In this document: positions 1,097 to 57,021 of the stretch, piece by piece
Numbering within the stretch: the first letter of the stretch is position 1
How the letters are laid out: every line of letters begins with the position of its first letter
From: a virus
Taxonomy: Duplodnaviria; Caudoviricetes
IMG/VR virus record: IMGVR_UViG_3300042445_001485
Direction: 5' to 3' (one strand)
Length of the DNA stretch: 64,000 bases
Position numbers and translations under genes: made by a program
The notes under the pieces: generated by a model
Databases searched by the model: none
Told to the model about the DNA's origin: nothing
The model's input: the letters and a program-made list of their open reading frames with translations, nothing else

Positions 1097-1117
1097 GATG
1101 TCAAACTAAATATTTCC

Positions 1118-1474
1118 ATGTTAGCACTTAAATATGAATCTTACCGACCAGACCTTTCTGTACCATGGGTATCGGAACTACTTACAACAACACAAGATCC
1201 TGCATTGCAATCGTTGAGTCAGAGCTATAATCGTTGGCTAGACCTATCACAGGGACAACATGGGTGGCGTATGCAGATCGTACACGGCAATGATCCACAC
1301 GTGGGCATACACATACACGACTTTGGTCCAACCACTACCGAAGAAAGTATATATCACTTGTACGATCTTTATCTATATCGCTTCTTGCCAGAGTACCAAG
1401 AATGGTACCACTGGCTAAGAAACTATGTGCAACAACATAATTGGCGTATCACTAGAACCATCATAGAGATTTAG
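1118..1474 (+). CDS. hypothetical protein
   Basis: 118-aa ORF preceded by TAAATA at 1107-1112. Confidence 0.6.
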   Translation: MLALKYESYRPDLSVPWVSELLTTTQDPALQSLSQSYNRWLDLSQGQHGWRMQIVHGNDPHVGIHIHDFGPTTTEESIYHLYDLYLYRFLPEYQEWYHWLRNYVQQHNWRITRTIIEI

Positions 1475-2325
1475 ATATCAAATCCAAAATTGGGATCAAA
1501 GTGTTCTGCTGATTCCTCGTAACCTTTATAGCCACGCGGATTGCATACCACACGACACTCTCCGATCATGTAGTCAAATTGATCATGTGTGTGTCCATGC
1601 GTCCATACTTTGATTTCTGGATAATCCAACATAAACTCACTGAGATCACTGCTGTAAGCACCATTCATAATGGTGTCATTTAAGTAGCGTGGTTTGATAC
1701 TGACCTTGCTTGGAGCATGGTGAGTGCAGATCACAACCGGACTTGTCTTGCCTTCTGCACGACGATTTGACATCACTGACTTGAGATAACCCACAGTTTT
1801 ATAATGATCTGTCATGGTTTTTTCTGGCTGTAGCCTATGATATGCATTCTTGGTTTCGTTAAACATGGTGATTTGACGATAGTCGTTCATCATTGATTTC
1901 ATATGAAACAAGGTCAACTCGTCACCTCGGTTCATATCGGTCCAAAGCGTAGCACCTAAGAATGTAACACCATCGATGTCAATACACTCATTTTCCAACA
2001 GTTGCACATTGTCGGGCATCTGTTCTTTTAAATGTGAGTAAGTCTTGTGGTACTGGAATCCATAATGCTCGTGGTTACCCATGACATAGATCACCTGCCT
2101 GTACTTGGGACATTCTTCAAGAAAGAAACGGATATACCGATCTTCGCGTTTTCCATTAAACACCTGTTCTGTTAACACCTGATTCAATATGTGGTTTTCT
2201 CTGTAACGTTCACGCTTGACATTCTTGGCCTCACAGATGTCTCCAGACAGGATTAGGACATCGCCGCCTGGCAACTCGAGATCTGCAAACTCAAGGTGTA
2301 AATCACTCATAACATTAACACGCAT
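1471..2325 (-). CDS. calcineurin-like metallophosphoesterase
   Basis: Motifs SDLH, GDI, GNHE, THH and HGHTH. Confidence 0.92.
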   Translation of the reverse strand: MRVNVMSDLHLEFADLELPGGDVLILSGDICEAKNVKRERYRENHILNQVLTEQVFNGKREDRYIRFFLEECPKYRQVIYVMGNHEHYGFQYHKTYSHLKEQMPDNVQLLENECIDIDGVTFLGATLWTDMNRGDELTLFHMKSMMNDYRQITMFNETKNAYHRLQPEKTMTDHYKTVGYLKSVMSNRRAEGKTSPVVICTHHAPSKVSIKPRYLNDTIMNGAYSSDLSEFMLDYPEIKVWTHGHTHDQFDYMIGECRVVCNPRGYKGYEESAEHFDPNFGFDI

Positions 2326-2379
2326 CTTCTTCTCCTATAATAGTAATTATACTATCAATTCCGTTATTGCACAAATAAA

Positions 2380-2401
2380 AAAAGGCCCCTCGGGGCCTTT
2401 T
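2380..2401. terminator. intrinsic terminator (bidirectional form)
   Basis: aaaaggcccctcggggcctttt hairpin with A/T tracts, just after the 2417 gene. Confidence 0.85.
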
Positions 2402-2416
2402 GGGTCGCGCCAGGGA

Positions 2417-2683
2417 TTAAACCAAACCCATTGCCAATGCTTTGTAACCAGCGGCTACAACTTTGCGGCTTGGTTTGCCATGCACATACTCAGTAACAGT
2501 AACACCGTTACCAGCTTTGCGGCTGTTTGCATAAATTGCAAAACCAGCTTGACGAATACGACTGGCTTCAGCACTCAAGTTGCCAATGCCAAAACGCTTA
2601 CGAGCTTCGCTTGCAGTCAATTTCTCACCATTGAGAACCATGGCTTTAAAAGCCTTACCAGTTTTAGTTTCTAGATTAATCAT
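2417..2683 (-). CDS. small winged-helix DNA-binding protein (putative)
   Basis: LTASEARKRFGIGNLSAEASRIRQAGFAI helix-turn-helix-like pattern. Confidence 0.6.
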   Translation of the reverse strand: MINLETKTGKAFKAMVLNGEKLTASEARKRFGIGNLSAEASRIRQAGFAIYANSRKAGNGVTVTEYVHGKPSRKVVAAGYKALAMGLV

Positions 2684-2729
2684 CTTTTTTCCTTTAAAAG
2701 TATTTGCAGTAATTTCAACTGCTGATGCT

Positions 2730-2758
2730 AGTATAGCAAAATTATTACACTAGGTCAA
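2730..2758 (-). promoter_or_regulatory. sigma70-type promoter
   Basis: TTGACC-N17-TATACT upstream of 2683. Confidence 0.75.
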
Positions 2759-2767
2759 CAACTAGTT

Positions 2768-2986
2768 TTACCGTTTGTAATATGTTTGCCCATAATATAT
2801 CTTGCGACACACTTCTTGACCTTGGAGCAGTCGATATGTAACGCAATCTTGATGGTAATGGTCACTTAGGGCATGACTGGCAACCGTTTTTCCAGTTGTG
2901 GCGGCCACACCCAAATCCATAACTGTAGTCACGGCACAACCTTGAAGGGTGACCAATAACACCATTAACCACTTATAGGTTATCAT
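2768..2986 (-). CDS. small putative lipoprotein
   Basis: Hydrophobic N-terminus with lipobox-like LQGC. Confidence 0.55.
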   Translation of the reverse strand: MITYKWLMVLLVTLQGCAVTTVMDLGVAATTGKTVASHALSDHYHQDCVTYRLLQGQEVCRKIYYGQTYYKR

Positions 2987-3347
2987 ATGAAATAGGCATC
3001 CATCCTAGTTGTCGTAGGTCTGTTTCAATTTCTTCGGTTACTTGCCCTTCGGGCACAAATCCTTCGCCTGTGCGACAACCAAGACCAAATCCTTCTTCTT
3101 CGGATCCAATGCCCGAGCAGTACCAATCTATGTAATTACCTTGCTGTCTAATGGTGGCAATGATGCCTCCGGCATAGCGCCAACTGCAATGCCACAGTTG
3201 TTTTTTCAATATGGCCATGACTTCTAGTCGTTGCCACTGCATATTACACAAGGCCGCATAGAGGTTTTGTGCATAGGTGTCATTGGCCCTGACCTTGTCA
3301 CAGATCCAGGTGGTATTTTTTAGATCGGTTTCTAAATTATGATCCAT
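2973..3347 (-). CDS. hypothetical phage protein
   Basis: 124-aa ORF directly behind a consensus promoter. Confidence 0.75.
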   Translation of the reverse strand: MDHNLETDLKNTTWICDKVRANDTYAQNLYAALCNMQWQRLEVMAILKKQLWHCSWRYAGGIIATIRQQGNYIDWYCSGIGSEEEGFGLGCRTGEGFVPEGQVTEEIETDLRQLGWMPISYDNL

Positions 3348-3352
3348 ACCTT

Positions 3353-3381
3353 ATTATAAACTATTTTAAATTTTGTGTCAA
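3353..3381 (-). promoter_or_regulatory. sigma70 consensus promoter
   Basis: TTGACA-N17-TATAAT, 5 nt before ATG 3347. Confidence 0.85.
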
Positions 3382-3772: not shown

Positions 3773-3773
3773 A

Positions 3774-8007: not shown

Positions 8008-8036
8008 CTCAACTCCTTTTTAGCTTCAATACATGT

Positions 8037-9270: not shown

Positions 9271-9317
9271 TGAGTTTTCCTTTTTAATAAAAATCATGGT
9301 CTTTCGATCCATGTGTT

Positions 9318-9346
9318 ATTATATAGCCTTCTGAACTGAAGAGCAA
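9318..9346 (-). promoter_or_regulatory. sigma70-type promoter of the porin
   Basis: TTGCTC-N17-TATAAT. Confidence 0.7.
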
Positions 9347-9960: not shown

Positions 9961-10200
9961 TTACTTGCTTTTCTCTACTTGCTTTTCTTCCGTTTTCTCC
10001 ACTTTCTTTTCGATGGGTGGTGGGAAATGCGGTTCAATCACATAGTGTGTGGCACCCCACCAACCAAATGCTGAGATAAAACCGTATAAAAATATTTCAA
10101 TTACCATAGCCTGTATTATACAAGCAAGTAAATTTTTGTCAATGTTTTCGGGTAAGATTGCAAGCAGGATCTTTACAAGCTGTAATTCGTTTACGATCAC
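9961..10200 (-). CDS. small membrane protein; probable start about 10104
   Basis: One TM segment and a Lys/Glu-rich tail. Confidence 0.45.
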   Translation of the reverse strand: MIVNELQLVKILLAILPENIDKNLLACIIQAMVIEIFLYGFISAFGWWGATHYVIEPHFPPPIEKKVEKTEEKQVEKSK

Positions 10201-10929: not shown

Positions 10930-11115
10930 TAAGAGAAACCCGCCGAAGCGGGTTTCCTGAGTTTCTGTTACGAGGTATGTCTTACCCTAGGCTACTTTAC
11001 GCGGCCAATGCGAACTGTGAGTCGTTAGCGTTTACTTTTTTTGCTTGATTAACGGTCATCGCCTACCGAGCGCCATTACTTGTACTCTTGACCCAATCGA
11101 TCCTGTGTCAGGCCC
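10930..11115 (-). ncRNA. ssrA: tmRNA coding piece (permuted, two-piece ssrA)
   Basis: 5' GGGCCUG acceptor strand at 11115, D-loop analogue ACACAGGAUCGAU, PK1 (CGC/GCG, CGGU/ACCG), resume context GUAAAC-GCU-AAC-GAC, tag (A)ANDSQFALAA* at 11029-10997; 3' end approximate. Confidence 0.93.
10935..10956 (-). terminator. terminator hairpin at the 3' end of the tmRNA coding piece
   Basis: gaaacccgc-ttcg-gcgggtttc perfect 9-bp stem with UUCG loop (minus strand). Confidence 0.85.
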
Positions 11116-11116
11116 A

Positions 11117-11329
11117 TCATAAGAAAACTTCTTCACCGTGTTCATCGCATAAACTAATATAGTGTTTGTTAGGACCAACAAACTTATACATCAAGTGACC
11201 TTGCTCTTTGTCCCGCTTGGTAAGAACCAAGTAATGCACTTGACCAAATTGGTTGGGCACTTCTTGAAACTTCTCGCCGTGGAATACAGGCAATATCTCT
11301 CCGTCACTTGTTTTTACACAAATCTTCAC
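11117..11329 (-). CDS. 70-aa protein encoded inside the tmRNA intervening segment
   Basis: TAAGGA Shine-Dalgarno immediately after ACCA, GTG at 11329, open for 70 codons, TGA ends 1 nt before the coding-piece 5' G. Confidence 0.7.
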   Translation of the reverse strand: MKICVKTSDGEILPVFHGEKFQEVPNQFGQVHYLVLTKRDKEQGHLMYKFVGPNKHYISLCDEHGEEVFL

Positions 11330-11340
11330 AAACTTCCTTA

Positions 11341-11405
11341 TGGTGGACCTGGGCGGCACTGCCCCGCCGTCTTGAATCCTTTTCTCAGTAACAGTTTACG
11401 CTGTT
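11341..11405 (-). ncRNA. ssrA: tmRNA acceptor piece (permuted ssrA)
   Basis: GAC-GGCGG-GGCAGUG-CCGCC-CAGGUCC-ACCA; pairs with GGGCCUG giving G3:U70; GAUUCAA and CUGUUACU pair with the coding piece; 5' end estimated from the promoter. Confidence 0.92.
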
Positions 11406-11411
11406 CTTGTT

Positions 11412-11440
11412 ATTATATATTTATTTTGATTGCGTGTCAA
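11412..11440 (-). promoter_or_regulatory. sigma70 consensus promoter of the tmRNA locus
   Basis: TTGACA-N17-TATAAT. Confidence 0.9.
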
Positions 11441-11589
11441 CCTATTTGGTACTTGGGTTACATCTGGCTACTATTTTTTTGTTTTGAGCCCGGTATTCTT
11501 CTTGCTTTTGGGACCTGGCCTGCTCTATTTCCGTCACTCATTCTTCAACTCCAATGGACGCCAGACTGGATCGTAGGGTAAAGTCACTG

Positions 11590-12223: not shown

Positions 12224-12502
12224 TCATTTGTCTCTAAAAAGGCTTTCAACCTTAGAGACAGCATCTGGTGTTGACCCTTCCGCCACACCTTGTTCTTTAT
12301 CCTTCTTTGCTTTCTCTATTGCGTCCCATTCGGCTCCGGTCTTTTCACCTCGTTTTTTCTTCACAGGAGGTTTAGATGAACGAACACCAGTGTGGCTGTT
12401 TTGGTAATCACCACTTGGTAGTTTAGTCCAGCCCTCTGCTACTTCTTCACTTTGGGCATTTTCAATAAGGTTGATATAATCGCGGAAAGATTTATTTGTC
12501 AT
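12224..12502 (-). CDS. small putative head-associated protein, possibly truncated
   Basis: TAAATA-N7-ATG; LIE and two VAEG motifs; ends abruptly at the tmRNA-like remnant. Confidence 0.55.
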   Translation of the reverse strand: MTNKSFRDYINLIENAQSEEVAEGWTKLPSGDYQNSHTGVRSSKPPVKKKRGEKTGAEWDAIEKAKKDKEQGVAEGSTPDAVSKVESLFRDK

Positions 12503-12741
12503 AGTATAGTATTTATCCTTCACGCTTCCAAAATCTAAAAGATTCTGTGAGTTTGTTGCGGATGTATTCTTCTGTTTCAGTATCGCAAGATGCTAACTCA
12601 CTATCCACTAAATCGTGAATTTTTGTCCATAATTCATTATATAGGTCTTGCGAATCCATAATATCCTAACACGGTAGTCCTACCCTTGCGTCCAGGACCT
12701 GTTTCTCTTTGCTTCATATAGCAATAACTTACATTGTATAT

Positions 12742-13203
12742 TTATTTTCGACCAATGTCAACCGGTATACTCAATGCTTTTAATCGTTGCAATACCGCAG
12801 GCTTGATTTCCTCAGGGTAATCAATGATGTTTACCAGTTTGATGTATTGATTAGTAAAAGGAATCGCTTGTGCAATTCGTTCTTCTTCTTCTCCGGTTGC
12901 TGGTCCACCTGTATAACCCGGTAAGTTACTTTGCCAAGCATGACTTTGGACATTGGCTAGTTTTCTCACGGCTCGGCCATCAACTGTGATCATTACAGAG
13001 TTGGCAAGATCATTGAAATGGTACCAGTCTGGATTTCTTGTTAAACTTACATTACCGTAGTCACTATAATCAAAATCAGGATCAACATTGTCAGCACCGC
13101 TAACATCCAGCTTGCCACTGCGAACCATACCATTTAACCCTTGTGTAGTAGTTTTGTGGTAAAGTAGATCGGTTGATTCTGTTAGAATTTCATTTATACG
13201 CAT
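12742..13203 (-). CDS. ADP-ribosyltransferase-like fold protein (putative)
   Basis: LYHKT and VSLTR strands typical of ART folds; MRINEILTES N-terminus; TAAATA-N4-ATG. Confidence 0.5.
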   Translation of the reverse strand: MRINEILTESTDLLYHKTTTQGLNGMVRSGKLDVSGADNVDPDFDYSDYGNVSLTRNPDWYHFNDLANSVMITVDGRAVRKLANVQSHAWQSNLPGYTGGPATGEEEERIAQAIPFTNQYIKLVNIIDYPEEIKPAVLQRLKALSIPVDIGRK

Positions 13204-13224
13204 CTAGTATTTATTACACCAGAT

Positions 13225-21269: not shown

Positions 21270-22421
21270 TTAGTGAAACATTAAGAATTGATTTTGCACA
21301 TCAAGTCTGGTTGCACCTAGATCACCGTGTCCTGCTGGAAATACCACAACATTCCATTGCGGCTTGGGTCCTTCGGGTATACGATTCATTTGATCGTATG
21401 TGATAATTGATGCAGGGTCAATACGGTATTTTGCCGACAACTGCTGTTTAAATTCGTCCCATGCTTCGGCACTACGGACCTGTGTACGACCCTGTTCGTC
21501 CTTGACATACTTGCCCTTGGCATCGGTGACAAACAAGTTACGGAACATGTCCTTGGGAATGGTGGGTGCGCCTTTTAGGTTTTTTCCGGCATTGCGATGG
21601 AATTCAACTTTTTTGACTTCACGACTCTTGGCGCCACCGTCACTGAAGTTGGGTAGTGTATTGGCCGGTGTGTTGGGGTCAGTTACTGGATCACCCATTT
21701 TACTATAGAAGTAAAAACGCACATCAGGATTGTTGAGTTGTACCTTTTTACTCAGGTCCCAGTATTGTTTACTGAAGAAGTCTCCAGCATCATGAATACG
21801 CACCAACAGTTTGATACCGTTTTTGTCTGCCAGGGCTTTTGTTCGTTTGATTTCTGTGTCAAACATCTGCATGTATTCGTCAGGGTGGTTGACCAAGAAG
21901 TTCAAGGCTTGTGCGGCACTCATTGATGCGGCCGGGAACATGACATAGCCACCTTTGCGGGCATAGCAGAACAGTTGGCATTCGCCGGCTCCGGGACAAG
22001 TTGTGATTTCCACAAACTCTCCAGTCTCTTCATCCACAACAATACCGCTCAGTGCTGGCAAGGTCAAGTCATATGTGATAGCGCCTTCTTTTTTGCTCTT
22101 GCTCATTTTGGCATTTGATCCCAAAATAGCTCTTGGCGGTGTGGTAATTTGACGCTTTAGATCTTCCAGGTCCCATTCTTCGGTGCCATCATCTTTGGTA
22201 ATGGCCTTGACATTGCTGCCGTGAATGATGGGTTTAAAGCGATCTTGTTTTGTTTTAGTACCAGTCTTGATACGAGTCAAGTAGGCCTGCATGTCTTGTC
22301 GGGACCATGACTTTTGTGGAGCATCTAGTTTGATTGCTTCTTCTACATCGCCCTGCTCAATATGAAGCGGCTTGACTGTAAAGCCACCTAATTTTGTTTC
22401 AATAAGTTGTGAATATCGCAT
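21270..22421 (-). CDS. GP88-like (Fe-S / radical-SAM-related) phage protein
   Basis: SNAKM, TCPGAGECQLFCYA, VRIHDAGDFF; start MRYSQLIE, 5 nt after TAAATA. Confidence 0.7.
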   Translation of the reverse strand: MRYSQLIETKLGGFTVKPLHIEQGDVEEAIKLDAPQKSWSRQDMQAYLTRIKTGTKTKQDRFKPIIHGSNVKAITKDDGTEEWDLEDLKRQITTPPRAILGSNAKMSKSKKEGAITYDLTLPALSGIVVDEETGEFVEITTCPGAGECQLFCYARKGGYVMFPAASMSAAQALNFLVNHPDEYMQMFDTEIKRTKALADKNGIKLLVRIHDAGDFFSKQYWDLSKKVQLNNPDVRFYFYSKMGDPVTDPNTPANTLPNFSDGGAKSREVKKVEFHRNAGKNLKGAPTIPKDMFRNLFVTDAKGKYVKDEQGRTQVRSAEAWDEFKQQLSAKYRIDPASIITYDQMNRIPEGPKPQWNVVVFPAGHGDLGATRLDVQNQFLMFH

Positions 22422-22429
22422 AGTTGTAT

Positions 22430-23611: not shown

Positions 23612-23618
23612 TGTATAT

Positions 23619-27091: not shown

Positions 27092-27111
27092 CTAGCAATT
27101 ATACTAGAAAA

Positions 27112-31092: not shown

Positions 31093-31098
31093 ACAAAT

Positions 31099-31127
31099 AT
31101 TATACAAAAGATACCATTGTGAGTCAA
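31099..31127 (-). promoter_or_regulatory. early promoter cassette
   Basis: TTGACT-N17-TATAAT. Confidence 0.85.
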
Positions 31128-34030: not shown

Positions 34031-34061
34031 ACTTGTATTATATACATACTTTATTTTATTG

Positions 34062-34499
34062 TCAACTGTAGATCCACCCTAAATGTTCCTTTTGGTGTAA
34101 CCAAGTAAAAATAGGTACCGTAAATGCCAATTCCCATCTGCCATTCCATCCCAAATGGGTCGCACCCCGAAGTATTTGATCCAGACTACTTTGTGAGTCT
34201 GCCCAAGGTTGTGGATAGTTGGGTGTATATGTTCCAGACCATTTTAGCCTGTCAGTTGTGATTCCTTCTACCGAGACCGAATCTACAACAACCATCATGT
34301 CTGGGGTGTCGTTGGTTTTGTTGGCAAACTCAAAGAAGAACCTGTGTGCTGTTGTAGATAAGTCTAGACTAAAGTGTAGCGTTACCTCATTGTCGATGAA
34401 AATTTTATTACATACTTCATTGTCTATGCCATAGGTAATCTCGGGACGACCCACACCCCGTAATGTAACAGCAAAGCTAGTATTATACTTGGTATCCAT
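34062..34499 (-). CDS. hypothetical protein
   Basis: 145 aa; coupled to the radical SAM gene. Confidence 0.7.
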   Translation of the reverse strand: MDTKYNTSFAVTLRGVGRPEITYGIDNEVCNKIFIDNEVTLHFSLDLSTTAHRFFFEFANKTNDTPDMMVVVDSVSVEGITTDRLKWSGTYTPNYPQPWADSQSSLDQILRGATHLGWNGRWELAFTVPIFTWLHQKEHLGWIYS

Positions 34500-42356: not shown

Positions 42357-43021
42357 ACACCTGTGGGATTACCATCTTCGAATGTAATAGTAGTGCCAAC
42401 CACATATCTGAAGCCGTCGCCCTGTATAACATGGTGAGCCAACTCTGTTCTTACCAGGGCACTGGGGCATGTAGTAACCGATGAAAATGCAGGTTTGGGT
42501 ATGTTATCCCAGGAGATCTTGCCTTGATGTAGATCTTCTACAAAATCAGCTATGCCTTTGACCCGAATAGGACCTGGGCGCAATGCCAAAGTAATTTTTA
42601 CATCATCTTCACTCCACCAACGAATTGCACCCGGACCGTCGCATAGTTCATAAAACGACATCCTTGCTTCTAATGTTGATACAGTATTGTTCAATCGATC
42701 TTGTTCGGTGAAGTATCCATCTTTGTGTACTGTCCATCCTGTTTGGTTTTTGTTACTTACAAAAGATGTCAAGTTGCGGCACACCAGGCCAATCGGGTTG
42801 AGAAATTTGTTACAGATTGCCAATGTTTTTTGCCACTGTGCTGGGTTTGCAGGCAATACCACATGTCCAACTTTTATATATCCATACTGTTCTCTTAGCT
42901 GGGCAACCGTGGTGTTAATTGCTAGTTCGCGTTCTTCAGGATCAATTCGAAACTGTAACGGTATAAAGTAATCTAAATTGCGTTTAGGCAACTGTGTAAA
43001 ATCATAATCTATGTTGAGCAT
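42314..43021 (-). CDS. HxD...H cupin-like protein, tandem copy 2
   Basis: WTVHKD ... AHHV; TAAATA-N4-ATG. Confidence 0.75.
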   Translation of the reverse strand: MLNIDYDFTQLPKRNLDYFIPLQFRIDPEERELAINTTVAQLREQYGYIKVGHVVLPANPAQWQKTLAICNKFLNPIGLVCRNLTSFVSNKNQTGWTVHKDGYFTEQDRLNNTVSTLEARMSFYELCDGPGAIRWWSEDDVKITLALRPGPIRVKGIADFVEDLHQGKISWDNIPKPAFSSVTTCPSALVRTELAHHVIQGDGFRYVVGTTITFEDGNPTGVWDHIRKNIDQLEI

Positions 43022-43040
43022 TGAATATTTAGTGATAAGG

Positions 43041-43760
43041 CTAAACTGCCAATTGGTCTATATTTTTTATAATATGGTCCCATACCCCAATTGGATTACC
43101 ATCATCAAATGTAATAGTGAATCCAACAACATATCTAAAACCATCACCTTGTATAACATGATGTGCTAAATTTGTTCTTACTAATGCACTGGGACATGTG
43201 GTCACTGATGAAAATGCAGGTGCTGGTATTTCATTCCAGGAGATCTTGCCTTGCTGTAGATCTTCTACAAAATCGGCATTGCCTTTGACTCGTCTTGGGC
43301 CAATCATTAACCCAGAGTTCACTTCTAGATTAATTTTCACATCATCCTCACTCCACCAACGAATTGCACCCGGGGCTGTAGATAGTCCATAAAATGATAT
43401 CCTTGCCTCCAACGATGAAATTGTGTTGTTTAATCGATCATCATTGGTAAAGTATCCATCTTTGTGTACATTCCAGGCTGTTTGATTTTTGTTGCTGACA
43501 AAGACTGTCACATACCGACTTGCAAGTCCAATTGGATTAAGAAATTTGTTGCAAATTGCAAGGGTTTGGGTCCAGTCGGCCATATTGCCAGCTGACCCAT
43601 AATGACCAGTTTTCTTATGACCTTGGCTTGCTATTGCCCGAGGGACTGTGGTGTTGACTGCTGTGGCATACTCTGCGGGATCTGGCTGCAGATCCATTGG
43701 TATAAAGTAATCTAAATTGCGTTTAGGCAACTCTGTAAAATCATAATCTATGTTGAGCAT
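43041..43760 (-). CDS. HxD...H cupin-like protein, tandem copy 1
   Basis: WNVHKD ... AHHV; TAAATA-N4-ATG. Confidence 0.75.
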   Translation of the reverse strand: MLNIDYDFTELPKRNLDYFIPMDLQPDPAEYATAVNTTVPRAIASQGHKKTGHYGSAGNMADWTQTLAICNKFLNPIGLASRYVTVFVSNKNQTAWNVHKDGYFTNDDRLNNTISSLEARISFYGLSTAPGAIRWWSEDDVKINLEVNSGLMIGPRRVKGNADFVEDLQQGKISWNEIPAPAFSSVTTCPSALVRTNLAHHVIQGDGFRYVVGFTITFDDGNPIGVWDHIIKNIDQLAV

Positions 43761-44401
43761 TGAATATTTAGTTGTTGTACAAAGTCTAAAAGTAATGCGT
43801 GATGTTGCCCATTATGATATCGGTCTCGCATCCATGAGTAACTGTCATACCAAAATTCTTCGCTTTCAGGATGGCAACCAATCAAACCGATATTGTTTTG
43901 TATGATGGCCATGCTGTCACCGTTGGCGTAGGTGGCAATGGTTTTAAATCGTCTATGATCTCCGGTCAAGGTACATCCATCATACCAAAACATATTGATA
44001 GGTTGTCCTTGCCAGGTGATGGGCATGTTCTTGGCATGTGGTCTACGAGTGTCTGAGCCTGGGCGTTTTAAATACTGCACAGCATCAACACCGTCTAAGA
44101 TATCAAGGTAATAACTACCGGCCCAGTATGCACCCATACATATACCCAAATATCTACCACCCTGTTTGACAAATTTTTTCACAGCCGACATGTTGTGTTT
44201 GAACCCAACATCAAAACTGGCTGCGTCTCCAAATCCCCCCGGAACTGCAACTATATCAACATCATCAAAGAAGTTATCTTCAATTTTGTTCTTGCTAAAG
44301 ATTTTGAAATTATAATGATTTTGTAAGGCTCGGATTATGCCATTACCCGACTGTACAGAGCATTTTGGATCATACAAAAATAACGCAATGGTGGGTTTCA
44401 T
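43748..44401 (-). CDS. BPL-N-like class I glutamine amidotransferase-fold protein
   Basis: VPGG, GGRYLGICMGAY (nucleophile Cys), GCHPE. Confidence 0.85.
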   Translation of the reverse strand: MKPTIALFLYDPKCSVQSGNGIIRALQNHYNFKIFSKNKIEDNFFDDVDIVAVPGGFGDAASFDVGFKHNMSAVKKFVKQGGRYLGICMGAYWAGSYYLDILDGVDAVQYLKRPGSDTRRPHAKNMPITWQGQPINMFWYDGCTLTGDHRRFKTIATYANGDSMAIIQNNIGLIGCHPESEEFWYDSYSWMRDRYHNGQHHALLLDFVQQLNIQCST

Positions 44402-48007: not shown

Positions 48008-48437
48008 TTTTAGTTCCTTGTTATTTTTATTATTGCTAATAAATGCGTAAGTATTTACGCTAACAAAGTCTAGAGATTTATTATGCTATTTGGATTTTTT
48101 TGATTTAGTAGTTTTGCCACGCACCTGTTTTTTTATTTCCTCTAAGATCTTTTCGCTGACTGGACTTGATCGGTGCGGATGGGACACCGACCCTGTTGAT
48201 GTGTGGGGCGGGTATTTTGGGGGCTTGTGTTTAAACCAACTCATATTGTATATATATGTAGTTTAGTTTTCGAGAGAATAATCTAAATATATTATATGAG
48301 TAGCTTTTTTGAAGACCTAAACGACATAGTTGCAGAAACACCAGTGGGTAAAGTATTGGGTGTTACTCTGTTGATTCTTGTTTTTGCCGGAGTCGTTGCA
48401 CTTGGATTTGCCTACTGGTTTACCCACAGCCATTGAG

Positions 48438-49853: not shown

Positions 49854-50383
49854 TATTGTTTTTGTATCCCTAGTTTATTATATACCTGTTGTACCGCAGT
49901 GGCTTGGCTAACACAGTCTTCCAAGGCATTGTGTAGTCCTGCTTTGCCTTTGACTCTTGGATCTCCGTGTACTCCAAATAGTGTACGACTGTCACGGATT
50001 TGCCAGTATTGCCAAGGAGTAGGCCACCCCATCTGTCTATACAAGTTTTCCAATATAGCAAAATCGAACAAAGGACCTTGAGCCCAAATATTGTTGGCGC
50101 CTACTAGAAATCTATTTAAGTCTCGATACAGGGTATCTAAACTAACACGCTCGTTTTCGCCCAGGGCTTCTTCACGGATGTCATCGGCCTGGCTAATCCA
50201 CCAAGCAAGAGTGTCTTCTTGCACTTCGCGACCCAGTGCTGTTTGTTCATCTACATCCACACGAAAGTAAATACCTGGTCCCGGGTCACTTAATGTATAA
50301 GGGTCAAACTTAATTGCACCCAGAGTAAGTATGACGCAATCTGGGCGAGTTCCTAGTGTTTCTAAATCAAGCATGATGTCCAT
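49853..50383 (-). CDS. DEDDh 3'-5' exonuclease/exoribonuclease (RNase T / DnaQ-like)
   Basis: DLETLG, FD, RDSRT, HNALED. Confidence 0.9.
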   Translation of the reverse strand: MDIMLDLETLGTRPDCVILTLGAIKFDPYTLSDPGPGIYFRVDVDEQTALGREVQEDTLAWWISQADDIREEALGENERVSLDTLYRDLNRFLVGANNIWAQGPLFDFAILENLYRQMGWPTPWQYWQIRDSRTLFGVHGDPRVKGKAGLHNALEDCVSQATAVQQVYNKLGIQKQ

Positions 50384-50400
50384 ACTTGTATTATATGCTA

Positions 50401-50880
50401 TTATTTACTTTGTGTCAAGAGTTTTTGGCTTTCTGCGGCAACCACACGGCTACGCAGACCCGAACTGGAGAACGAATGATCTCTGCCGTTGAACACTAGT
50501 TCAATCCCGCGCATTCCACATTCCTCCATGCCAGAGAAATTTATATGTTGATATTCCACACCCAAGATGCGTACATCCACAGGCAAGATCAACAACAGGT
50601 CCCTAAGGTCCTGTTCAGTTTGATACACAACAACTTCGTCCACATAACGGCATGCGGCCAATTGTATTTGTCGTTCCACAATACTTTGTACAGGTTTGTT
50701 TTTGGTATCCGGGCGATCGATTGTGGGATCTGTTTGCAAGCCACAAATTAGATAATCGCAATGATTCTTGGCTTCACTCAACATGGCAATATGTCCGGCA
50801 TGGAGCATGTCGAATGTGCTGAATGTTATACCAATTTTTTTACCTGCGTCTTTGAGTTCTCTAATGTGATTGAATATCAT
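50401..50880 (-). CDS. cytidylyltransferase (TagD/RfaE-like)
   Basis: TFDMLHAGH (HxGH), ICGLQTD, SSSGLR. Confidence 0.92.
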   Translation of the reverse strand: MIFNHIRELKDAGKKIGITFSTFDMLHAGHIAMLSEAKNHCDYLICGLQTDPTIDRPDTKNKPVQSIVERQIQLAACRYVDEVVVYQTEQDLRDLLLILPVDVRILGVEYQHINFSGMEECGMRGIELVFNGRDHSFSSSGLRSRVVAAESQKLLTQSK

Positions 50881-51188
50881 GTTTCTATTTCAAGTTTGAC
50901 ACTCAGCGGGAATCCGTGACTGCGAGCCAGCAAGGTGACTTCGACACCTTTTTGTTCTGCAATCTCATAGGGTAGTACTGCTACCACCGCCGATCCTGCT
51001 TCGTGAATCTTTTCTGTGATTGCCACAGCGGCCGATTCATCATAGTAAAACATTATCTTTAATGTTTCCACAACAAATTCCATGGTGGTTACTTCATCAT
51101 TGATGTAGATCACTCTATATTGACTAGGTTCTTTGAGTTTAACCTTAGGAGCAATCTTTGGTTTATTTTTAGTTTCAGGTTCTGCCAT
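50877..51188 (-). CDS. clpS: ClpS adaptor protein
   Basis: VIYINDEVTTMEFVV, IHEAGSAVV, FPL. Confidence 0.93.
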   Translation of the reverse strand: MAEPETKNKPKIAPKVKLKEPSQYRVIYINDEVTTMEFVVETLKIMFYYDESAAVAITEKIHEAGSAVVAVLPYEIAEQKGVEVTLLARSHGFPLSVKLEIET

Positions 51189-51204
51189 AGTATAGTATTT
51201 AACA

Positions 51205-51774: not shown

Positions 51775-52014
51775 TTAATACAACTTTTTTGGTAATTCTT
51801 GGTCACGCAACTTTTTACGCCAACGGGCCTGTGCCGCACCTCGTTTGCGTTTGCGTTCGGTTGTGGGTTTTTCAAAATGTTGGCGTTCTTTTATTTCTTC
51901 AAGTAGTCCCGACTCTTGGATTTTTTTCTTGAATTTGCGTAGAGCTTTATCCACTTGATCATTTTGAACAATTACGCTACATCCGCGAATTGGTTTTGGT
52001 TTGTAATATGACAT
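51775..52014 (-). CDS. rpsU: ribosomal protein bS21
   Basis: VDKALRKFKKK...GLLEEIKERQHFEKPTTERKRKR.AA..R. Confidence 0.93.
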   Translation of the reverse strand: MSYYKPKPIRGCSVIVQNDQVDKALRKFKKKIQESGLLEEIKERQHFEKPTTERKRKRGAAQARWRKKLRDQELPKKLY

Positions 52015-52025
52015 GTACTATTTAC

Positions 52026-53516
52026 TTAAATTTTACCTTGTTGTTGATTTTTTAAATATTCAGCTATTTGGGTTTGTTCTGTTTCACTGAGCTCGTCCGG
52101 ATCGTACTCGCCCGAAGCAATTTTATCTACCAGATGTTTGATATATGCTTCATTAAATACGTAGTTATCTGTTAGTGATTTATCACTTTCAACCCACTTG
52201 GACCCATTCCATTTGAACAATTTACTGGGTAGATAATCTGTACGCAAAAACATGTCACCCTTGTTTGGCTTCAACGGAAACGATGTTCCGAAGTCAGCAT
52301 TTGATGCGTTGCCTAAACTGGGATGATTATCTGCTAGGGCACTTAATTCTGGAAACTGTTGTTTAAACGAGTCAATGCTATAACTACGGCCGTTATGCAT
52401 TAAATGATCGCTGTTTGTTAAAAATACCAAGTTATCGTCGGGTGGTAGCGGTTCATCTAATGCCGCAACTTCCGCTTCAGTAAAAGGTCTAGTTTCAACA
52501 GCGGAAATCTCCCCAGGGGCGAGTATAGCCATTGCGGCCGCATCTTCGTGTATGGCATGTGTGCTGGGTGGGGGTGGCGCCACCATGGGCATAAGATTCT
52601 TAAAATGTTCAAATGGCCGTTTTAAATATGCCAAAGGGTCAAACTTAGTTTGAGGTTCATCGGGCTCGTTCTGAGCTATGGGCTCAGCGACTTCCGGCGC
52701 TGTTGGTGCCTCTACCGTTGGTTCATCTAAAATTGATCCCGATTCTTTCTTGTCTCGTTCTTCTTGGGCCCACTTGATGCTTTGTTGTGCGGCTAGTATT
52801 AATACCAGTGCCAAGGGATCAAACACCAGCACAATAATAATGATCACCAGCCTGACAGCTCGTTCTAATACATTCTGATCAGGATTGTCGCCATACACCA
52901 GGGCCGCTATGTATTTTATAGGACCGACTTCTGATTCGATCTTCCTGTTCTCTGCGGCGAGAGGTGCCCGGTCTTCATTAAGTTGACTAATTTTTTTCTG
53001 TTCGGCCTCGATCTCGGCTTGTAAACGGGTTCGCTCTTTTTGCTGAGATCTGCGTATAGAGACTGCTTTATCGGCACCCTTTTCATCTGAGCTTCGGCCC
53101 ATGACTTGATCCACTGCCTCATCATACTGTTTAAGAACTTTGCGGTTAGCATCGATATTGTCCCTTGCTATTTTGATTTTTTCATCGTATATGGCTACCC
53201 GGGCCATTGAATCACCTGATACTAAACTTTGATCACTGTGTGCTTTACTCAGGAATCCAAAGATGCCCATGCTTGTTAACAGCATTAAGAATGCCACAGC
53301 CGGAACAAGATAAAACTTGTACAACAGGCTGGCTCGTTCCCAATACATCTTTAGCCAAATAGCCGCAGTGACTTTGCCAACTTCTAGGCTGGCACCCATG
53401 ATCATGATGGGGATCACAGCGGCTGAGAAAATGGCAGTTAGGCCTATAATACTGTAGTAGGCCGCAATGGCACTGATGATCAGTGCAACGATTAGAGTGA
53501 AGTATCCAAATATCAT
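52026..53516 (-). CDS. membrane-anchored coiled-coil phage protein
   Basis: Several N-terminal TMs, coiled coil, further TM, C-terminal KGDMFLRTDYLP. Confidence 0.85.
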   Translation of the reverse strand: MIFGYFTLIVALIISAIAAYYSIIGLTAIFSAAVIPIMIMGASLEVGKVTAAIWLKMYWERASLLYKFYLVPAVAFLMLLTSMGIFGFLSKAHSDQSLVSGDSMARVAIYDEKIKIARDNIDANRKVLKQYDEAVDQVMGRSSDEKGADKAVSIRRSQQKERTRLQAEIEAEQKKISQLNEDRAPLAAENRKIESEVGPIKYIAALVYGDNPDQNVLERAVRLVIIIIVLVFDPLALVLILAAQQSIKWAQEERDKKESGSILDEPTVEAPTAPEVAEPIAQNEPDEPQTKFDPLAYLKRPFEHFKNLMPMVAPPPPSTHAIHEDAAAMAILAPGEISAVETRPFTEAEVAALDEPLPPDDNLVFLTNSDHLMHNGRSYSIDSFKQQFPELSALADNHPSLGNASNADFGTSFPLKPNKGDMFLRTDYLPSKLFKWNGSKWVESDKSLTDNYVFNEAYIKHLVDKIASGEYDPDELSETEQTQIAEYLKNQQQGKI

Positions 53517-53583
53517 AGTCGTATATTTATAGGTTTTAGTCCTATAGTATACGCAGATAAATGGGAGTTGTCAATGATTATGG

Positions 53584-54830: not shown

Positions 54831-54969
54831 TCTTCCACTCCGATCCTAATTAGAAAACCACGAGAGTTTCTTAACTTATCTAATTCAGAGAGTTCGTTGT
54901 CTGAACCCACTGTGGTCCAATTGGCGTATAATGCAACGATTGCAATAACTATGAAACCAATTGTTTCTT

Positions 54970-55482
54970 TCATTCTGCAACTCCAAACTGTTTTATCAAT
55001 CGTGAGATATCGGTAATATCGTTTTTTGTAATATTAAACCATTCTCCTCTTACCCATTTTTTTTCAAAATGCTTGTGTAATTTTTTTTCAATAATATCTA
55101 CTCGGTTCAGCAAGTCTGATTTCCAAACTAATTTAAGATCCAACCAATGCGCTGTCTGTAAAGATCTTTTTCTTTTATCTGTGTTTGATCCCGAAGTTAT
55201 TCCAATTTTATAAGGTGTTCCTGGGATATCTGGACCTATAACATAAATGGTTCCAGTAACAGCACCTGCCATGACCAATGTAGTTTTTTGACTACGAACT
55301 AGTCCTTTGGCCTTTATTGCGCTACGCCATTGTGTGGCATATTGTTTGGCACAGGATTTACATTGGGGAATAGCAAGTTGATTCAAATTTTTAGCAACCT
55401 TCTTGAGACCGCTAGGAAAAAAATACTCTTCTGTTGCTTCCAGTAACAGTTTACATTTTGAGCAGGTGTAATGTAATTTCAT
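54970..55482 (-). CDS. T5orf172 / GIY-YIG-like endonuclease with N-terminal Zn finger
   Basis: CSKC...CKSC; IYVIG, YKIGIT, EKKLH, GEWF; start MKLHY. Confidence 0.8.
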   Translation of the reverse strand: MKLHYTCSKCKLLLEATEEYFFPSGLKKVAKNLNQLAIPQCKSCAKQYATQWRSAIKAKGLVRSQKTTLVMAGAVTGTIYVIGPDIPGTPYKIGITSGSNTDKRKRSLQTAHWLDLKLVWKSDLLNRVDIIEKKLHKHFEKKWVRGEWFNITKNDITDISRLIKQFGVAE

Positions 55483-55842
55483 TCTAATTCCTATCCACTG
55501 GTAAACAAACATATTGTCGAGCAGTGGTATTGGGTTGTTTAGCAGATACACAATCCTGTTTGGTTCGATAATGCTCGACCACTTGATAATCCTTGATAGG
55601 ACCATTATTGGATCCCGGAGACAACAATACAACAACCAATACCCAATTGAGCATCACAGACCTTTGATAAAGTCTATAACTGCACGGGCTTGAGTTAAAT
55701 CCATGTCGGTGTCGTCTGCTGTTTTATCTGCCGGACGGAATACATAGTGTGTATTCTTAATGGCATACAGACTGGTGTTGTTGGTGGGTACAACATTGAA
55801 TCGGTCATAGCTCATTTGGCGTTTCTTGTTCATACTTGCTCC

Positions 55843-56223
55843 TTAGGTGATTAAAATATGTTTCTGGTTGGCTCGGTCGCTGTACAACTGGTTGCCACGC
55901 TCACGAATCATGTCGGCCGCTGTCTGCGGTGTGGACTCAAACAGGTCACGCAAATCTTGTTGAGTAATACCACGGTCTGTTGTTACTGTATAAATTTCGT
56001 AATGTCGCTGTGGGTTTTTTCGGGCTCGCATGATCATCATACCAACCATTTGGTTGACTTTTACCAGGTGTTCATTGCGTGGTACTGTGTCTGGATCGCG
56101 GATTATGTCGAACAGTTTTTCTTGTTCAAATGTTTCTGAGCGATCACGGTCTTGTGTAATGTCAACACAGGCTTCAAGTCCGGTGTTGTCCCAACTAAGA
56201 ATAAAAAGATTTTGTTTCTTCAT
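55843..56223 (-). CDS. early hypothetical protein
   Basis: TACAAT-N6-ATG. Confidence 0.75.
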   Translation of the reverse strand: MKKQNLFILSWDNTGLEACVDITQDRDRSETFEQEKLFDIIRDPDTVPRNEHLVKVNQMVGMMIMRARKNPQRHYEIYTVTTDRGITQQDLRDLFESTPQTAADMIRERGNQLYSDRANQKHILIT

Positions 56224-56229
56224 AGTGCT

Positions 56230-56258
56230 ATTGTACAATAGATGCCATTGTTAGTCAA
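56230..56258 (-). promoter_or_regulatory. early promoter cassette
   Basis: TTGACT-N17-TACAAT with atggcatctattg spacer. Confidence 0.82.
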
Positions 56259-56649
56259 TGGCTCTACGGAACACAATTTCCTGTCGTGCAAAGGCTTCTT
56301 GTTCCCAGGGTTGATCCAAATACGGAGTGCGTCTTGAGTAGAACTTGCCACACCATTTTTTACCTCGTGGTGTTATCTTTAATATACCTTTGGCCATTTG
56401 ACGCACATGCACCAATTCATGTGCAAGTGTTACTCCCAATTCCAGGCAATTGCGTTTGGGCTTTAACACAACCAAAACGGTATCTATGCCTGTCATTGGC
56501 ACTGTGGTGCCGTGGTCTTTGAGATCACGATCTACTTTAATCATTAAAAATTTACGGCTACTGTCCAACCCAAGTTGGGTCAGCATACTGGGCAGTACCG
56601 CTTCAATAAATCGTCGAGTCTTGGGGCCTGCTTCAACATGGAATTCCAT
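56251..56649 (-). CDS. HExxH metallopeptidase-like protein
   Basis: TLAHELVH, QPWEQEAF. Confidence 0.8.
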   Translation of the reverse strand: MEFHVEAGPKTRRFIEAVLPSMLTQLGLDSSRKFLMIKVDRDLKDHGTTVPMTGIDTVLVVLKPKRNCLELGVTLAHELVHVRQMAKGILKITPRGKKWCGKFYSRRTPYLDQPWEQEAFARQEIVFRRAID

Positions 56650-56659
56650 TGTGTGTTCC

Positions 56660-56986
56660 TTAGTGGCTGTTCAGAGCAGGATTAAATTCGGCAATCAATT
56701 CACGCTCACGAGCATGAGCAGGCTTGCGTCCACGCACAAACTCCACAATGCCGTAAGTGTGAGCCAATGTGCCGTATTCGCGAATTGACTTACACAAAGC
56801 CCAATCTTTGTTTTCTGTAACTGCACGGCGTACATGTTTCTGCATACGCACTTTTAGAGCTTTACGAACTTGTTGTCCGCAAACTGTAATACCAATGTAT
56901 TGTTGGCCTGTTGTTGTATTGGTAATACAGTAAACGACATGCTTGGTATCTTGGCGTCTTTTTCGGGGTTGCTTTTTAAGTTCCAT
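56660..56986 (-). CDS. GIY-YIG nuclease-family protein
   Basis: VVYCITN...YIG, R...H, E...I...P.LN. Confidence 0.85.
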   Translation of the reverse strand: MELKKQPRKRRQDTKHVVYCITNTTTGQQYIGITVCGQQVRKALKVRMQKHVRRAVTENKDWALCKSIREYGTLAHTYGIVEFVRGRKPAHARERELIAEFNPALNSH

Positions 56987-56992
56987 ACAAGT

Positions 56993-57021
56993 ATTATAGC
57001 AATGATTCCTTTTTCGGACAA
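56993..57021 (-). promoter_or_regulatory. early promoter cassette
   Basis: TTGTCC-N17-TATAAT, 6 nt before ATG 56986. Confidence 0.78.

What the first reader, a model, noticed from the sequence alone, without database searches (positions are those of the whole stretch)
1107..56998. Systematic leaderless gene architecture at both late and early promoters
Seen in sequence: TAAATA sits only 4-5 nt before the ATG at 1118, 9916, 10916, 13203, 14814, 22421, 23611, 43021, 43760 and 52014 (bS21), and 7 nt before 12502, 51188 (clpS) and 53516. TATAAT/TACAAT sits exactly 6 nt before the ATG at 27091, 30827, 31092, 34030, 50383, 56223 and 56986. None of these leaves room for a Shine-Dalgarno. With normal -10 to TSS spacing, the transcripts would start at or next to the AUG. 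The same window encodes its own bS21, a protein that affects SD-dependent initiation and anti-SD availability, and its own tmRNA. Inference: the phage runs a largely leaderless translation programme alongside an SD-led set (AAAAAGGAG genes) and may tune ribosomes between the two.
Basis: partly seen in the sequence, partly recalled or inferred. Interest (0 to 1): 0.75.

Follow-up and report, generated by a model that had tools for sequence, protein, structure and literature searches.

The report
Phage promoters fused to start codons
In this uncultured giant phage about a quarter of the genes start 4-7 bases after a promoter box with no ribosome-binding site, so their messages probably begin at the AUG itself; relatives, three of them cultured, share the layout, but no RNA data confirm it and the phage's own ribosomal protein is not needed to explain it.

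Summary
All 20 coordinates and spacings are exact, and I added five more cases. TAAATA-N4-ATG occurs 9 times against 1.3 in shuffles. TATAAT-N6-ATG occurs 9 times against 1.06.

- **Early class:** full sigma70 promoters (TTGACA-like, 16-17 nt, TATAAT) that put the canonical +1 on the A of ATG.
- **Late class:** the core of the T4 late-promoter box.
- **Distances:** box-to-ATG distances are bimodal. There is a sharp peak at 4-7 nt without SD, an almost empty zone at 8-16 nt, and a broad peak at 17-33 nt with SD.
- **Relatives:** three complete ~350-kb uncultured relatives show the same pattern, as do cultured Xanthomonas phage XacN1, Stenotrophomonas phage RAS14 and Pelagibacter phage Mosig. 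T4, NCTB and Yoloswag do not.
- **Orthologues:** they keep the spacing while the surrounding sequence, and even the start codon position, changes.

Leaderless or near-leaderless mRNAs are the best reading (about 0.7), inferred from sequence only.

The proposed link to phage bS21 is not supported. G003, XacN1 and RAS14 have the layout but no bS21, and published E. coli work says ribosomes lacking bS21 favour leaderless mRNA.

I found no paper describing this layout. This scan has already noted the same layout on other phage DNA.

The parts
1067..1104 (-). Early-type promoter fused to ATG 1069 (TTGACA-N17-TATAAT-N6-ATG), 132-aa ORF
3345..3381 (-). Early-type promoter fused to ATG 3347 (TTGACA-N17-TATAAT-N5-ATG), 124-aa ORF
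9310..9346 (-). Early-type promoter (TTGCTC-N17-TATAAT-N5) fused to ATG 9312 of the phage porin gene
10105..10142 (-). Early-type promoter (TTGACA-N16-TATAAT-N7) before ATG 10107, 48-aa ORF; candidate only
27089..27126 (-). Early-type promoter (TTTACA-N17-TATAAT-N6) fused to ATG 27091, 284 aa; the G001 orthologue keeps TATAAT-N6-ATG
30825..30862 (-). Early-type promoter (TTGATC-N17-TATAAT-N6) fused to ATG 30827, 41-aa ORF; kept with the same spacing in G003
31090..31127 (-). Early-type promoter (TTGACT-N17-TATAAT-N6) fused to ATG 31092, 77 aa; kept in G003 and G005
34028..34065 (-). Early-type promoter (TTGACA-N17-TATAAT-N6) fused to ATG 34030 of the UV-damage endonuclease (UvsE-like) gene; kept in many orthologues even where the start codon has moved
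50381..50418 (-). Early-type promoter (12 of 12 consensus, N6) fused to ATG 50383 of the 3'-5' exoribonuclease gene; kept in G001 and G005
56221..56258 (-). Early-type promoter (TTGACT-N17-TACAAT-N6) fused to ATG 56223, 126 aa
56984..57021 (-). Early-type promoter (TTGTCC-N17-TG-n-TATAAT-N6) fused to ATG 56986 of a GIY-YIG protein; kept in G003 and G005
1107..1120 (+). TAAATA-N5-ATG, 118-aa ORF with weak coding score
9914..9926 (-). TAAATA-N4-ATG 9916, 179 aa
10914..10926 (-). TAAATA-N4-ATG 10916, 180 aa; follows directly after the G+C-rich hairpin that ends the tmRNA gene
12500..12515 (-). TAAATA-N7-ATG 12502, 92 aa; the same 16-mer as at 51188; TAA doubles as the stop of a 48-codon upstream ORF
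13201..13213 (-). TAAATA-N4-ATG 13203, 153 aa
14812..14824 (-). TAAATA-N4-ATG 14814, 180 aa; follows a hairpin plus T-run
22419..22432 (-). TAAATA-N5-ATG 22421, 383 aa with a GP88 domain; TAA is also the stop of the upstream gene
23609..23621 (-). TAAATA-N4-ATG 23611, 393 aa with a deaminase domain; TAA is also the stop of the upstream gene
43019..43031 (-). TAAATA-N4-ATG 43021, 235 aa; paralogue of the next entry
43758..43770 (-). TAAATA-N4-ATG 43760, 239 aa; the box lies inside the 3' end of the upstream gene
48284..48298 (+). TAAATA-N6-ATG 48296, 46-aa ORF; candidate only
51186..51201 (-). TAAATA-N7-ATG 51188 of clpS; follows a hairpin
52012..52024 (-). TAAATA-N4-ATG 52014 of the phage bS21 gene (51775-52014); the G001 orthologue has TAAATA-N7, the G005 orthologue has an SD instead
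53514..53529 (-). TAAATA-N7-ATG 53516 of a 496-aa gene with a weak virion-protein match; nearly all of about 55 distinct orthologues keep TAAATA 4-7 nt before the ATG
10953..11444 (-). Permuted (two-piece) tmRNA gene behind a 12 of 12 sigma70 promoter (11440-11412)

Best explanation
Two promoter classes are deliberately placed against start codons, so the first gene of many transcription units is made as a leaderless or near-leaderless mRNA (0-3 nt leader).

- Class 1 is a host sigma70-type promoter (TTGACA-like, 16-17 nt, TATAAT). Its -10 box ends 6 nt (rarely 5 or 7) before the ATG, so the canonical +1 is the A of AUG.
- Class 2 is the core of the T4-type late promoter (TAAATA, no -35). It is presumably read by a gp55-like phage sigma, and it ends 4-7 nt before the ATG.
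- Ribosomes would then start on the 5'-terminal AUG without an SD. Downstream genes in the unit, and a separate set of leadered genes behind the same two promoter types, use AAGGAG-type SDs.

Shown here: the motifs, the spacing, its statistics, its conservation, the absence of an SD, and T4-type capsid, portal and gp55-like genes in relatives.

Inferred: the transcription start points, the temporal classes, and the mode of translation.
For: 1. Sharp single-spacing peaks far above shuffles.
2. Bimodal distance from box to ORF-opening ATG in the window and in the complete relatives G001, G003 and G005. There is a peak at 4-7 (TAAATA) or 6 (TATAAT) with no SD, an almost empty zone at 8-16, and a second peak at 17-33 that mostly carries an SD. 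This is what is expected if a leader must be either absent or long enough to hold an SD.
3. The same two-peak pattern appears in cultured XacN1 (N5 8, N6 5; TATAAT N6-7 6+6), RAS14 (N5 8) and Mosig (N5 6). N5 is exactly the T4 geometry, with the box at -13 to -6 (PMC1524935).
4. Conservation: orthologues of the 496-aa gene at 45-98% identity keep TAAATA 4-7 nt from the ATG. UvsE, exoribonuclease, GIY-YIG and small-ORF orthologues keep the sigma70 promoter at N6 with different spacer sequences and shifted start codons. Other orthologues have swapped it for an SD.
5. N-termini are conserved from residue 1 (MIFG...; MD...), so the ATGs are the real starts.
6. All 25 starts are ATG.
7. TAAATA as a late promoter: it precedes the T4-type portal gene in 4 of 5 relatives. 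The relatives have T4-type gp23 and gp20 genes and a weak gp55 homologue.
8. Hairpins sit directly before the box at 10916, 14814 and 51188.
9. The exact pattern TTGACA-N17-TATAAT-N6-ATG is found in all five large relatives and never in the reversed-pattern control.
Against: - No transcript 5' end has been seen.
- With strict T4 geometry, the dominant N4 spacing of this window puts +1 on the T of ATG. The late polymerase would have to start 1 nt closer than in T4. N7 cases would carry a 2-3-nt leader.
- The gp55 match in relatives is weak (E 3e-6 to 4e-5). The window's own genome outside these 64 kb is not held, so its sigma factor is unseen.
- In three late cases the TAA is also the upstream stop codon, so translational coupling could contribute there.
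- The 5' ends of these genes are only marginally less structured than those of SD-led genes (-1.54 vs -2.69 kcal/mol, p 0.06).
- The scan tool did not call the hairpins before 10916, 14814 and 51188 as terminators.
- In raw ATG counts the XacN1 and RAS14 peaks are not significant against a background that includes the leadered class.
Confidence: 0.7

Rival explanations
1. The boxes are promoters, but the close packing reflects only genome compaction. The genes would be translated mainly from longer read-through transcripts, by stop-start coupling or by SD-independent, A/U-rich (S1-type) initiation, not from 5'-terminal AUGs.
For: Many of these genes lie 8-31 nt after a same-strand gene with no called terminator. 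In three late cases the TAA of the box is the upstream stop codon.
Against: Compaction alone does not predict a one-base-sharp spacing or the empty 8-16 nt zone. It also does not predict the same spacing where the intergenic gap is 44-218 nt (9916, 14814, 51188, 53516). Orthologues that lose the fused promoter gain an SD.
Confidence: 0.15
2. TAAATA next to the ATG is an RNA-level signal rather than a promoter. It could be a ribosome-recruiting element that replaces the SD, or an RNase processing site that trims transcripts to the AUG.
For: It sits at a fixed distance from the start codon, as an SD does. The upstream TA of the T4 octamer is not conserved here.
Against: The same hexamer also occurs 17-33 nt upstream of genes that carry their own SD. 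It precedes the T4-type portal gene in relatives. The relatives encode gp55-like proteins. An unrelated, unmistakable promoter (sigma70) shows the same fusion to ATG.
Confidence: 0.07
3. One reading: phage bS21, with the tmRNA, retunes host ribosomes to balance leaderless and SD-led phage messages.
For: bS21 sits by the anti-SD and affects initiation (PMC9723584, PMC10491246). The gene is in this window behind a fused late box.
Against: G003, XacN1 and RAS14 have the layout but no bS21. The phage protein is an ordinary proteobacterial-type bS21. In E. coli, ribosomes lacking bS21 favour leaderless mRNA (PMC10491246), which is the opposite direction to what the late leaderless class would need.
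Confidence: 0.08
4. Chance co-occurrence in A+T-rich intergenic DNA.
For: The motifs are short and A+T-rich. Overall, TAAATA is not over-represented (60 copies against 56 in shuffles).
Against: Peaks at single spacings have p 1e-5 and 2e-6. They recur in six other genomes. They are conserved at orthologous genes. T4, NCTB and Yoloswag lack them.
Confidence: 0.01

Closest known systems
Phage T4 late promoters (TATAAATA at -13 to -6, read by gp55 with gp33 and the gp45 clamp; PMC1524935)
   Same: Same core box with no -35 element. Relatives carry T4-type gp23, gp20 and a gp55-like gene. The box precedes the portal gene. A leadered class sits 17-33 nt from the ATG with an SD, as in T4.
   Different: T4 has no short-distance peak, and its late messages carry leaders. 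Here about half of the boxes that precede an ORF abut the ATG. The dominant spacing is N4, one base shorter than T4 geometry predicts. The upstream TA of the octamer is not conserved.
Thermus phage phiYS40 (and P23-45) leaderless middle/late transcripts (as reviewed in PMC3594737)
   Same: A lytic phage in which a whole temporal class of messages lacks a leader.
   Different: Different host phylum and a different promoter motif. phiYS40 is reported to shift host IF2 and IF3 levels. Here both a host-sigma70 class and a T4-type late class are fused to ATG, in phages of Pseudomonadota-type hosts, next to many SD-led genes. Nothing is known here about initiation factors.
Lambda PRM-cI leaderless mRNA (PMC10491246)
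   Same: A sigma70 promoter whose +1 is the A of AUG, with no SD.
   Different: One regulatory gene in a temperate phage, against about 25 of roughly 100 genes in this window.
Leaderless transcriptomes of mycobacteria and other bacteria (PMC4633059)
   Same: A -10 box at a fixed short distance from the start codon, used as the signature of leaderless genes.
   Different: That is a property of the host genome. Here it is a property of a phage clade, and it involves a phage-specific promoter class.
Jumbo phages with mapped 5' ends: phiKZ (PMC8244752) and AR9 (PMC5312081)
   Same: Large phage genomes with early and late promoter classes.
   Different: phiKZ showed no leaderless transcript, and AR9 has 5' UTRs of 26-491 nt. 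The layout seen here is therefore not a general jumbo-phage trait.

Membership tests
Leaderless mRNA genes | Transcript 5' end at (or within a few nt of) the A of the start codon | not testable with these tools
   No RNA data. Metagenome contig ends gave no information. Inferred only from promoter geometry.
Leaderless mRNA genes | A promoter -10 element at a fixed short distance upstream of the start codon | tested here: met
   TATAAT N6 (9 copies against 1.06 expected) and TAAATA N4 (9 against 1.31). Bimodal distances.
Leaderless mRNA genes | No Shine-Dalgarno sequence before the start codon | tested here: met
   Only 4-7 nt lie between box and ATG, and none holds an SD core.
Leaderless mRNA genes | AUG start codon | tested here: met
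   25 of 25 are ATG. Low power, because GTG and TTG are rare in all classes.
Sigma70-type promoters | -35 TTGACA-like and -10 TATAAT-like hexamers 16-18 nt apart | tested here: met
   9 to 12 of 12 consensus positions for all 11 early cases.
T4-type late promoters | TATAAATA box without a -35 element | tested here: inconclusive
   The core TAAATA is invariant, but the two upstream bases vary. The -13 T is also loose in other T4-like phages (PMC1524935).
T4-type late promoters | A gp55-type sigma factor encoded by the phage | tested here: inconclusive
   The window's own genome beyond 64 kb is not held. Four complete relatives give weak hits to T4 gp55, E 3e-6 to 4e-5.
T4-type late promoters | Placed before virion (late) genes | tested here: met
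   TAAATA precedes the T4-type portal gene in G001, G003, XacN1 and RAS14. In the window it precedes a 496-aa gene with a weak virion-protein match. Most other window genes behind it have no known function.
T4-type late promoters | Transcription starts 6 nt after the box | not testable with these tools
   Needs RNA 5'-end mapping.
Phage bS21-dependent specialised translation | The layout co-occurs with a phage bS21 gene | tested here: not met
   bS21 is present in the window, G001, G005 and Mosig. It is absent from G003, XacN1 and RAS14, which all have the layout.
phiYS40-type leaderless programme | Most middle and late transcripts mapped as leaderless, with host IF2 raised and IF3 lowered | not testable with these tools
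   Known only from the review PMC3594737. No expression data exist for this phage.

The most novel reading that the evidence does not exclude
Promoter-gated translation. Because these genes have no SD, they would be translated only from transcripts that start at their own promoter, and would stay silent on read-through RNA from upstream units. In a tightly packed genome with few terminators, fusing the promoter to the AUG would then keep early and late protein sets apart at the level of translation. That would explain why both promoter classes use the trick, and why orthologues switch cleanly between 'fused promoter' and 'SD'.
Probability: 0.3. Interest if true: 0.7.

Novelty: new variant of a known kind. 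Interest (0 to 1): 0.55.

Why it matters
- **Scale.** If the 5' ends are confirmed, a large and abundant clade of aquatic T4-superfamily giant phages, plus cultured phages of Xanthomonas, Stenotrophomonas and SAR11, would express a sizeable share of their genes as leaderless mRNAs from both host-type and phage-type promoters. T4, the model for this superfamily, shows no such short-spacing peak.
- **Annotation.** Gene finders that expect an SD will misplace these starts. Several longest-ORF calls in this window start inside the promoter, for example at 7710, 14844, 22460, 30685 and 56238.
- **Promoter prediction.** It gives a simple sequence rule for finding promoters and true start codons in phage metagenomes.
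- **Biology.** It raises a testable question: how do infected Proteobacteria translate many leaderless messages efficiently?
- **Tractability.** Cultured members make the question testable at the bench.

Tried and rejected
- **tmRNA.** ARAGORN found no tmRNA. Rfam did.
- **Close relatives.** Megablast of 20 kb against deposited phages gave nothing. No whole genome is held for the window, so its sigma factors could not be looked for.
- **Host.** A search with the porin in bacterial genomes gave no relative. The protein atlas says only Pseudomonadota. The bS21 neighbours there are viral.
- **Contig ends as TSS proxy.** I hoped metagenome or metatranscriptome contig ends would mark transcription starts. 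None of 80 contigs begins at the ATG.
- **Start-codon test.** ATG against GTG/TTG has no power, because all classes use ATG almost exclusively.
- **5' structure test.** Only marginal, p 0.06.
- **Raw counts in cultured phages.** Raw motif-to-ATG counts in XacN1 and RAS14 are not significant against a background inflated by the leadered class. The signal there rests on the ORF-opening analysis.
- **Terminators.** The scan did not call the hairpins I saw before 10916, 14814 and 51188, so I treat them as hairpins only.
- **More distant phages.** NCTB and Yoloswag (UvsE about 43-45% identical) and T4 lack the short-spacing peak.
- **Bacteroidetes host.** I considered this because related freshwater bS21 phages were assigned to Bacteroidetes (PMC9723584). 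I rejected it for this phage because it uses AAGGAG SDs, TTGACA/TATAAT promoters and a proteobacterial-type bS21.
- **Literature.** Nine searches found no description of this layout in T4-like or jumbo phages.

Full report
**What the window is.** The 64 kb are phage DNA of about 42% G+C, with most genes on the minus strand. Identified genes:
- bS21 (51775-52014), ClpS (50877-51188) and an ATP-dependent DNA ligase;
- a Gram-negative porin and an autotransporter beta-domain protein;
- ribonucleotide reductase and a UV-damage endonuclease;
- a permuted two-piece tmRNA (10953-11444, Rfam 113.5 bits), which ARAGORN misses.

No deposited phage is close at the DNA level, and no whole genome is held.

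**The observation.** I printed the 45 nt before each named start and then listed every motif-to-ATG pair.
- The early set consists of complete sigma70-type promoters. Each has a TTGACA-like hexamer, 17 nt (once 16), then TATAAT or TACAAT, then 6 nt, then ATG.
- Five further cases fit: 1069 (N6), 3347 and 9312 (N5), 10107 (N7) and 48296+ (TAAATA N6).
- That makes about 11 early-type and 14 late-type genes out of roughly 100.
- About 31 other genes carry strong AAGGA/AGGAG-type SDs.

**Is it more than chance?** Yes.
- In 200 dinucleotide-preserving shuffles, TAAATA-N4-ATG is expected 1.31 times (largest 6) and is seen 9 times.
- TATAAT-N6-ATG is expected 1.06 times (largest 4) and is seen 9 times. 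Neighbouring spacings are at background.
- Of 60 TAAATA copies, 28 are followed within 45 nt by an ATG that opens at least 60 codons. Random positions give 9.2 +/- 2.7.
- 13 are followed within 3-7 nt, against 1.24 +/- 1.14 for random positions.
- Two cautions apply. 43021 and 43760 are tandem paralogues. At 12502, 22421 and 23611 the TAA of the box is also the upstream stop codon.

**The key pattern is bimodal.** I measured the distance from each box to the first ORF-opening ATG.
- There is a sharp peak at 4-7 nt for TAAATA and at 6 nt for TATAAT, with no SD.
- The zone from about 8 to 16 nt is nearly empty.
- A second broad peak lies at 17-33 nt, where most leaders hold an SD core.
- This holds in the window and in three complete relatives of 345-357 kb (G001, G003, G005).
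- The exact pattern TTGACA-N17-TATAAT-N6-ATG occurs in all five large relatives searched and never in the reversed-pattern control.
- A leader that is either absent or long enough to hold an SD is what a mixed leaderless and SD-led design predicts.

**Conservation.**
- The 496-aa gene at 53516 has about 55 distinct orthologues in IMG/VR at 45-98% identity. Nearly all keep TAAATA 4-7 nt before an ATG whose first codons (MIFG...) are conserved.
- Many UvsE orthologues at 59-71% identity keep the sigma70 promoter at exactly N6. They do so although the spacer sequence differs and the start codon has shifted by -3 to +15 nt. Others have replaced it with an AAGGA SD.
- The exoribonuclease, the GIY-YIG gene, the 284-aa ORF at 27091 and two small ORFs keep the fused promoter in at least one of G001, G003 and G005.
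- Many late-type genes of the window are accessory and have no orthologue in those three genomes.

**What the late box is.**
- The relatives encode T4-type major capsid (Pfam Gp23, about 1e-99) and portal (about 1e-105) proteins.
- They also encode a weak but consistent gp55 homologue (E 3e-6 to 4e-5).
- TAAATA precedes the portal gene in G001, G003, XacN1 and RAS14.
- The T4 late box lies at -13 to -6 (PMC1524935), so the sixth base after the box is +1.
- N5 therefore puts +1 on the A of ATG, and N7 gives a 2-nt leader.
- The window's dominant N4 needs a start one base closer than in T4. This is the main loose end for the late class.
- For the early class, N6 is the textbook sigma70 distance (my own knowledge). 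The tmRNA gene in the same window sits behind the same promoter type.

**How far the layout reaches.**
- By protein similarity, the nearest cultured phages are Pelagibacter phage Mosig and the jumbo phages XacN1, RAS14/CM1, SCTP-2 and RsoM2USA.
- I analysed whole sequences of XacN1, RAS14 and Mosig. XacN1 has 8 ORF-opening ATGs at N5 and 5 at N6, plus 6+6 at TATAAT N6-7. RAS14 has 8 at N5. Mosig has 6 at N5. Next to nothing lies at 7-16 nt in XacN1 and RAS14; Mosig still has some cases at 8-11 nt. All three have a leadered class beyond that.
- T4 has no short-distance peak. NCTB and Yoloswag have none either.
- The two jumbo phages with published 5'-end maps have no leaderless messages: phiKZ (PMC8244752) and AR9, whose UTRs are 26-491 nt (PMC5312081).

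**The bS21 idea.**
- The phage bS21 is closest to 71-residue proteobacterial bS21 proteins (E 3e-14) and far from the Flavobacterium type (5e-4).
- bS21 is present in the window, G001, G005 and Mosig. It is absent from G003 (99% complete), XacN1 and RAS14, which all show the layout.
- The lambda cI cryo-EM preprint reports that ribosomes lacking uS2 and bS21 favour leaderless mRNA (PMC10491246).
- Published thinking on phage bS21 is about favouring phage over host messages late in infection (PMC9723584), not about leaderless messages.
- I therefore see no support for ribosome tuning between the two gene sets, although it is not excluded for this phage.

**Host.** Three things point to a Pseudomonadota host rather than the Bacteroidetes hosts proposed for related freshwater bS21 phages (PMC9723584):
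- the porin's nearest clusters are from Pseudomonadota;
- the tmRNA is of the two-piece type, best matched by the alphaproteobacterial model within its clan;
- the phage uses SDs and TTGACA/TATAAT promoters.

**Comparison with what is known.** Leaderless messages are known from lambda cI, from Thermus phage phiYS40 (most middle and late transcripts, with IF2 raised and IF3 lowered; PMC3594737), and from mycobacteria (PMC4633059). What differs here:
- a T4-type late promoter is fused to AUG;
- a host sigma70 class is fused in the same way;
- both sit beside an SD-led set;
- the layout spans a large aquatic clade and includes cultured phages.

Nine literature searches found no description of this. 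The XacN1 paper and a jumbo-phage review do not mention it. Earlier notes of this scan describe the same layout in other phage genomes and in this genome's neighbouring window. My XacN1 and RAS14 result adds cultured jumbo phages to the list.

**Verdict.** Leaderless or near-leaderless expression is the best explanation, at about 0.7. It is inferred from sequence only. The bS21 link is not supported.

Noticed in passing
window 12500-12515 and 51186-51201; 34028-34042 and 50381-50395: Unrelated genes share identical promoter-to-start strings. The 16-mer TAAATACTATACTATG stands before both a 92-aa ORF and clpS. TATAATACAAGTATG stands before both uvsE and the exoribonuclease gene. This suggests either copied promoter cassettes or a strong constraint on the bases between box and ATG.
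   Followed up: no
window 8013-8042, 17376-17405 (variants before 15933 and 16868): A repeated leadered early cassette: TACAAT, the same ACTTGT spacer as in the fused promoters, then a conserved leader of about 24 nt ending in AAAAAGGAG. There are 2 matches within 3 mismatches against 0 in shuffles.
   Followed up: partly
window 8173-9312 and 45911-48007: The phage encodes a Gram-negative porin (Porin_4, 1.4e-30) and a 698-aa protein with an autotransporter beta-domain (2e-15). These are outer-membrane proteins a phage would have to insert into its host. The porin gene sits behind a fused sigma70 promoter.
   Followed up: partly
window 21270-22421: The GP88-domain protein is 91% identical to its counterpart in G003, whereas other shared proteins are 36-69% identical. 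The two have different N-termini. This looks like a recent exchange between distant clade members.
   Followed up: partly
window 42314-43021 and 43041-43760: Tandem paralogues of 235 and 239 aa have identical late box, spacing and first four codons. No family match.
   Followed up: no
window 10953-11444: The permuted tmRNA is found by Rfam and missed by ARAGORN. It has a 12 of 12 sigma70 promoter (11440-11412). A fused late box for the next gene (10916) follows directly after its terminal hairpin.
   Followed up: partly
window 7710, 14844, 22460, 30685, 56238: Longest-ORF starts (TTG or GTG) at these places lie inside or upstream of promoter boxes. They are probably wrong, and the likely starts are ATGs a few codons downstream. 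Automatic annotation of this clade will tend to over-extend such genes.
   Followed up: partly
L091 / L240 (IMG/VR contig of 331,654 bp): A relative in this clade has the same length as the largest genome ('up to 331 kbp') in the published freshwater bS21-phage study that proposed Bacteroidetes hosts. The clade found here may overlap with that study's phages. Not checked.
   Followed up: no
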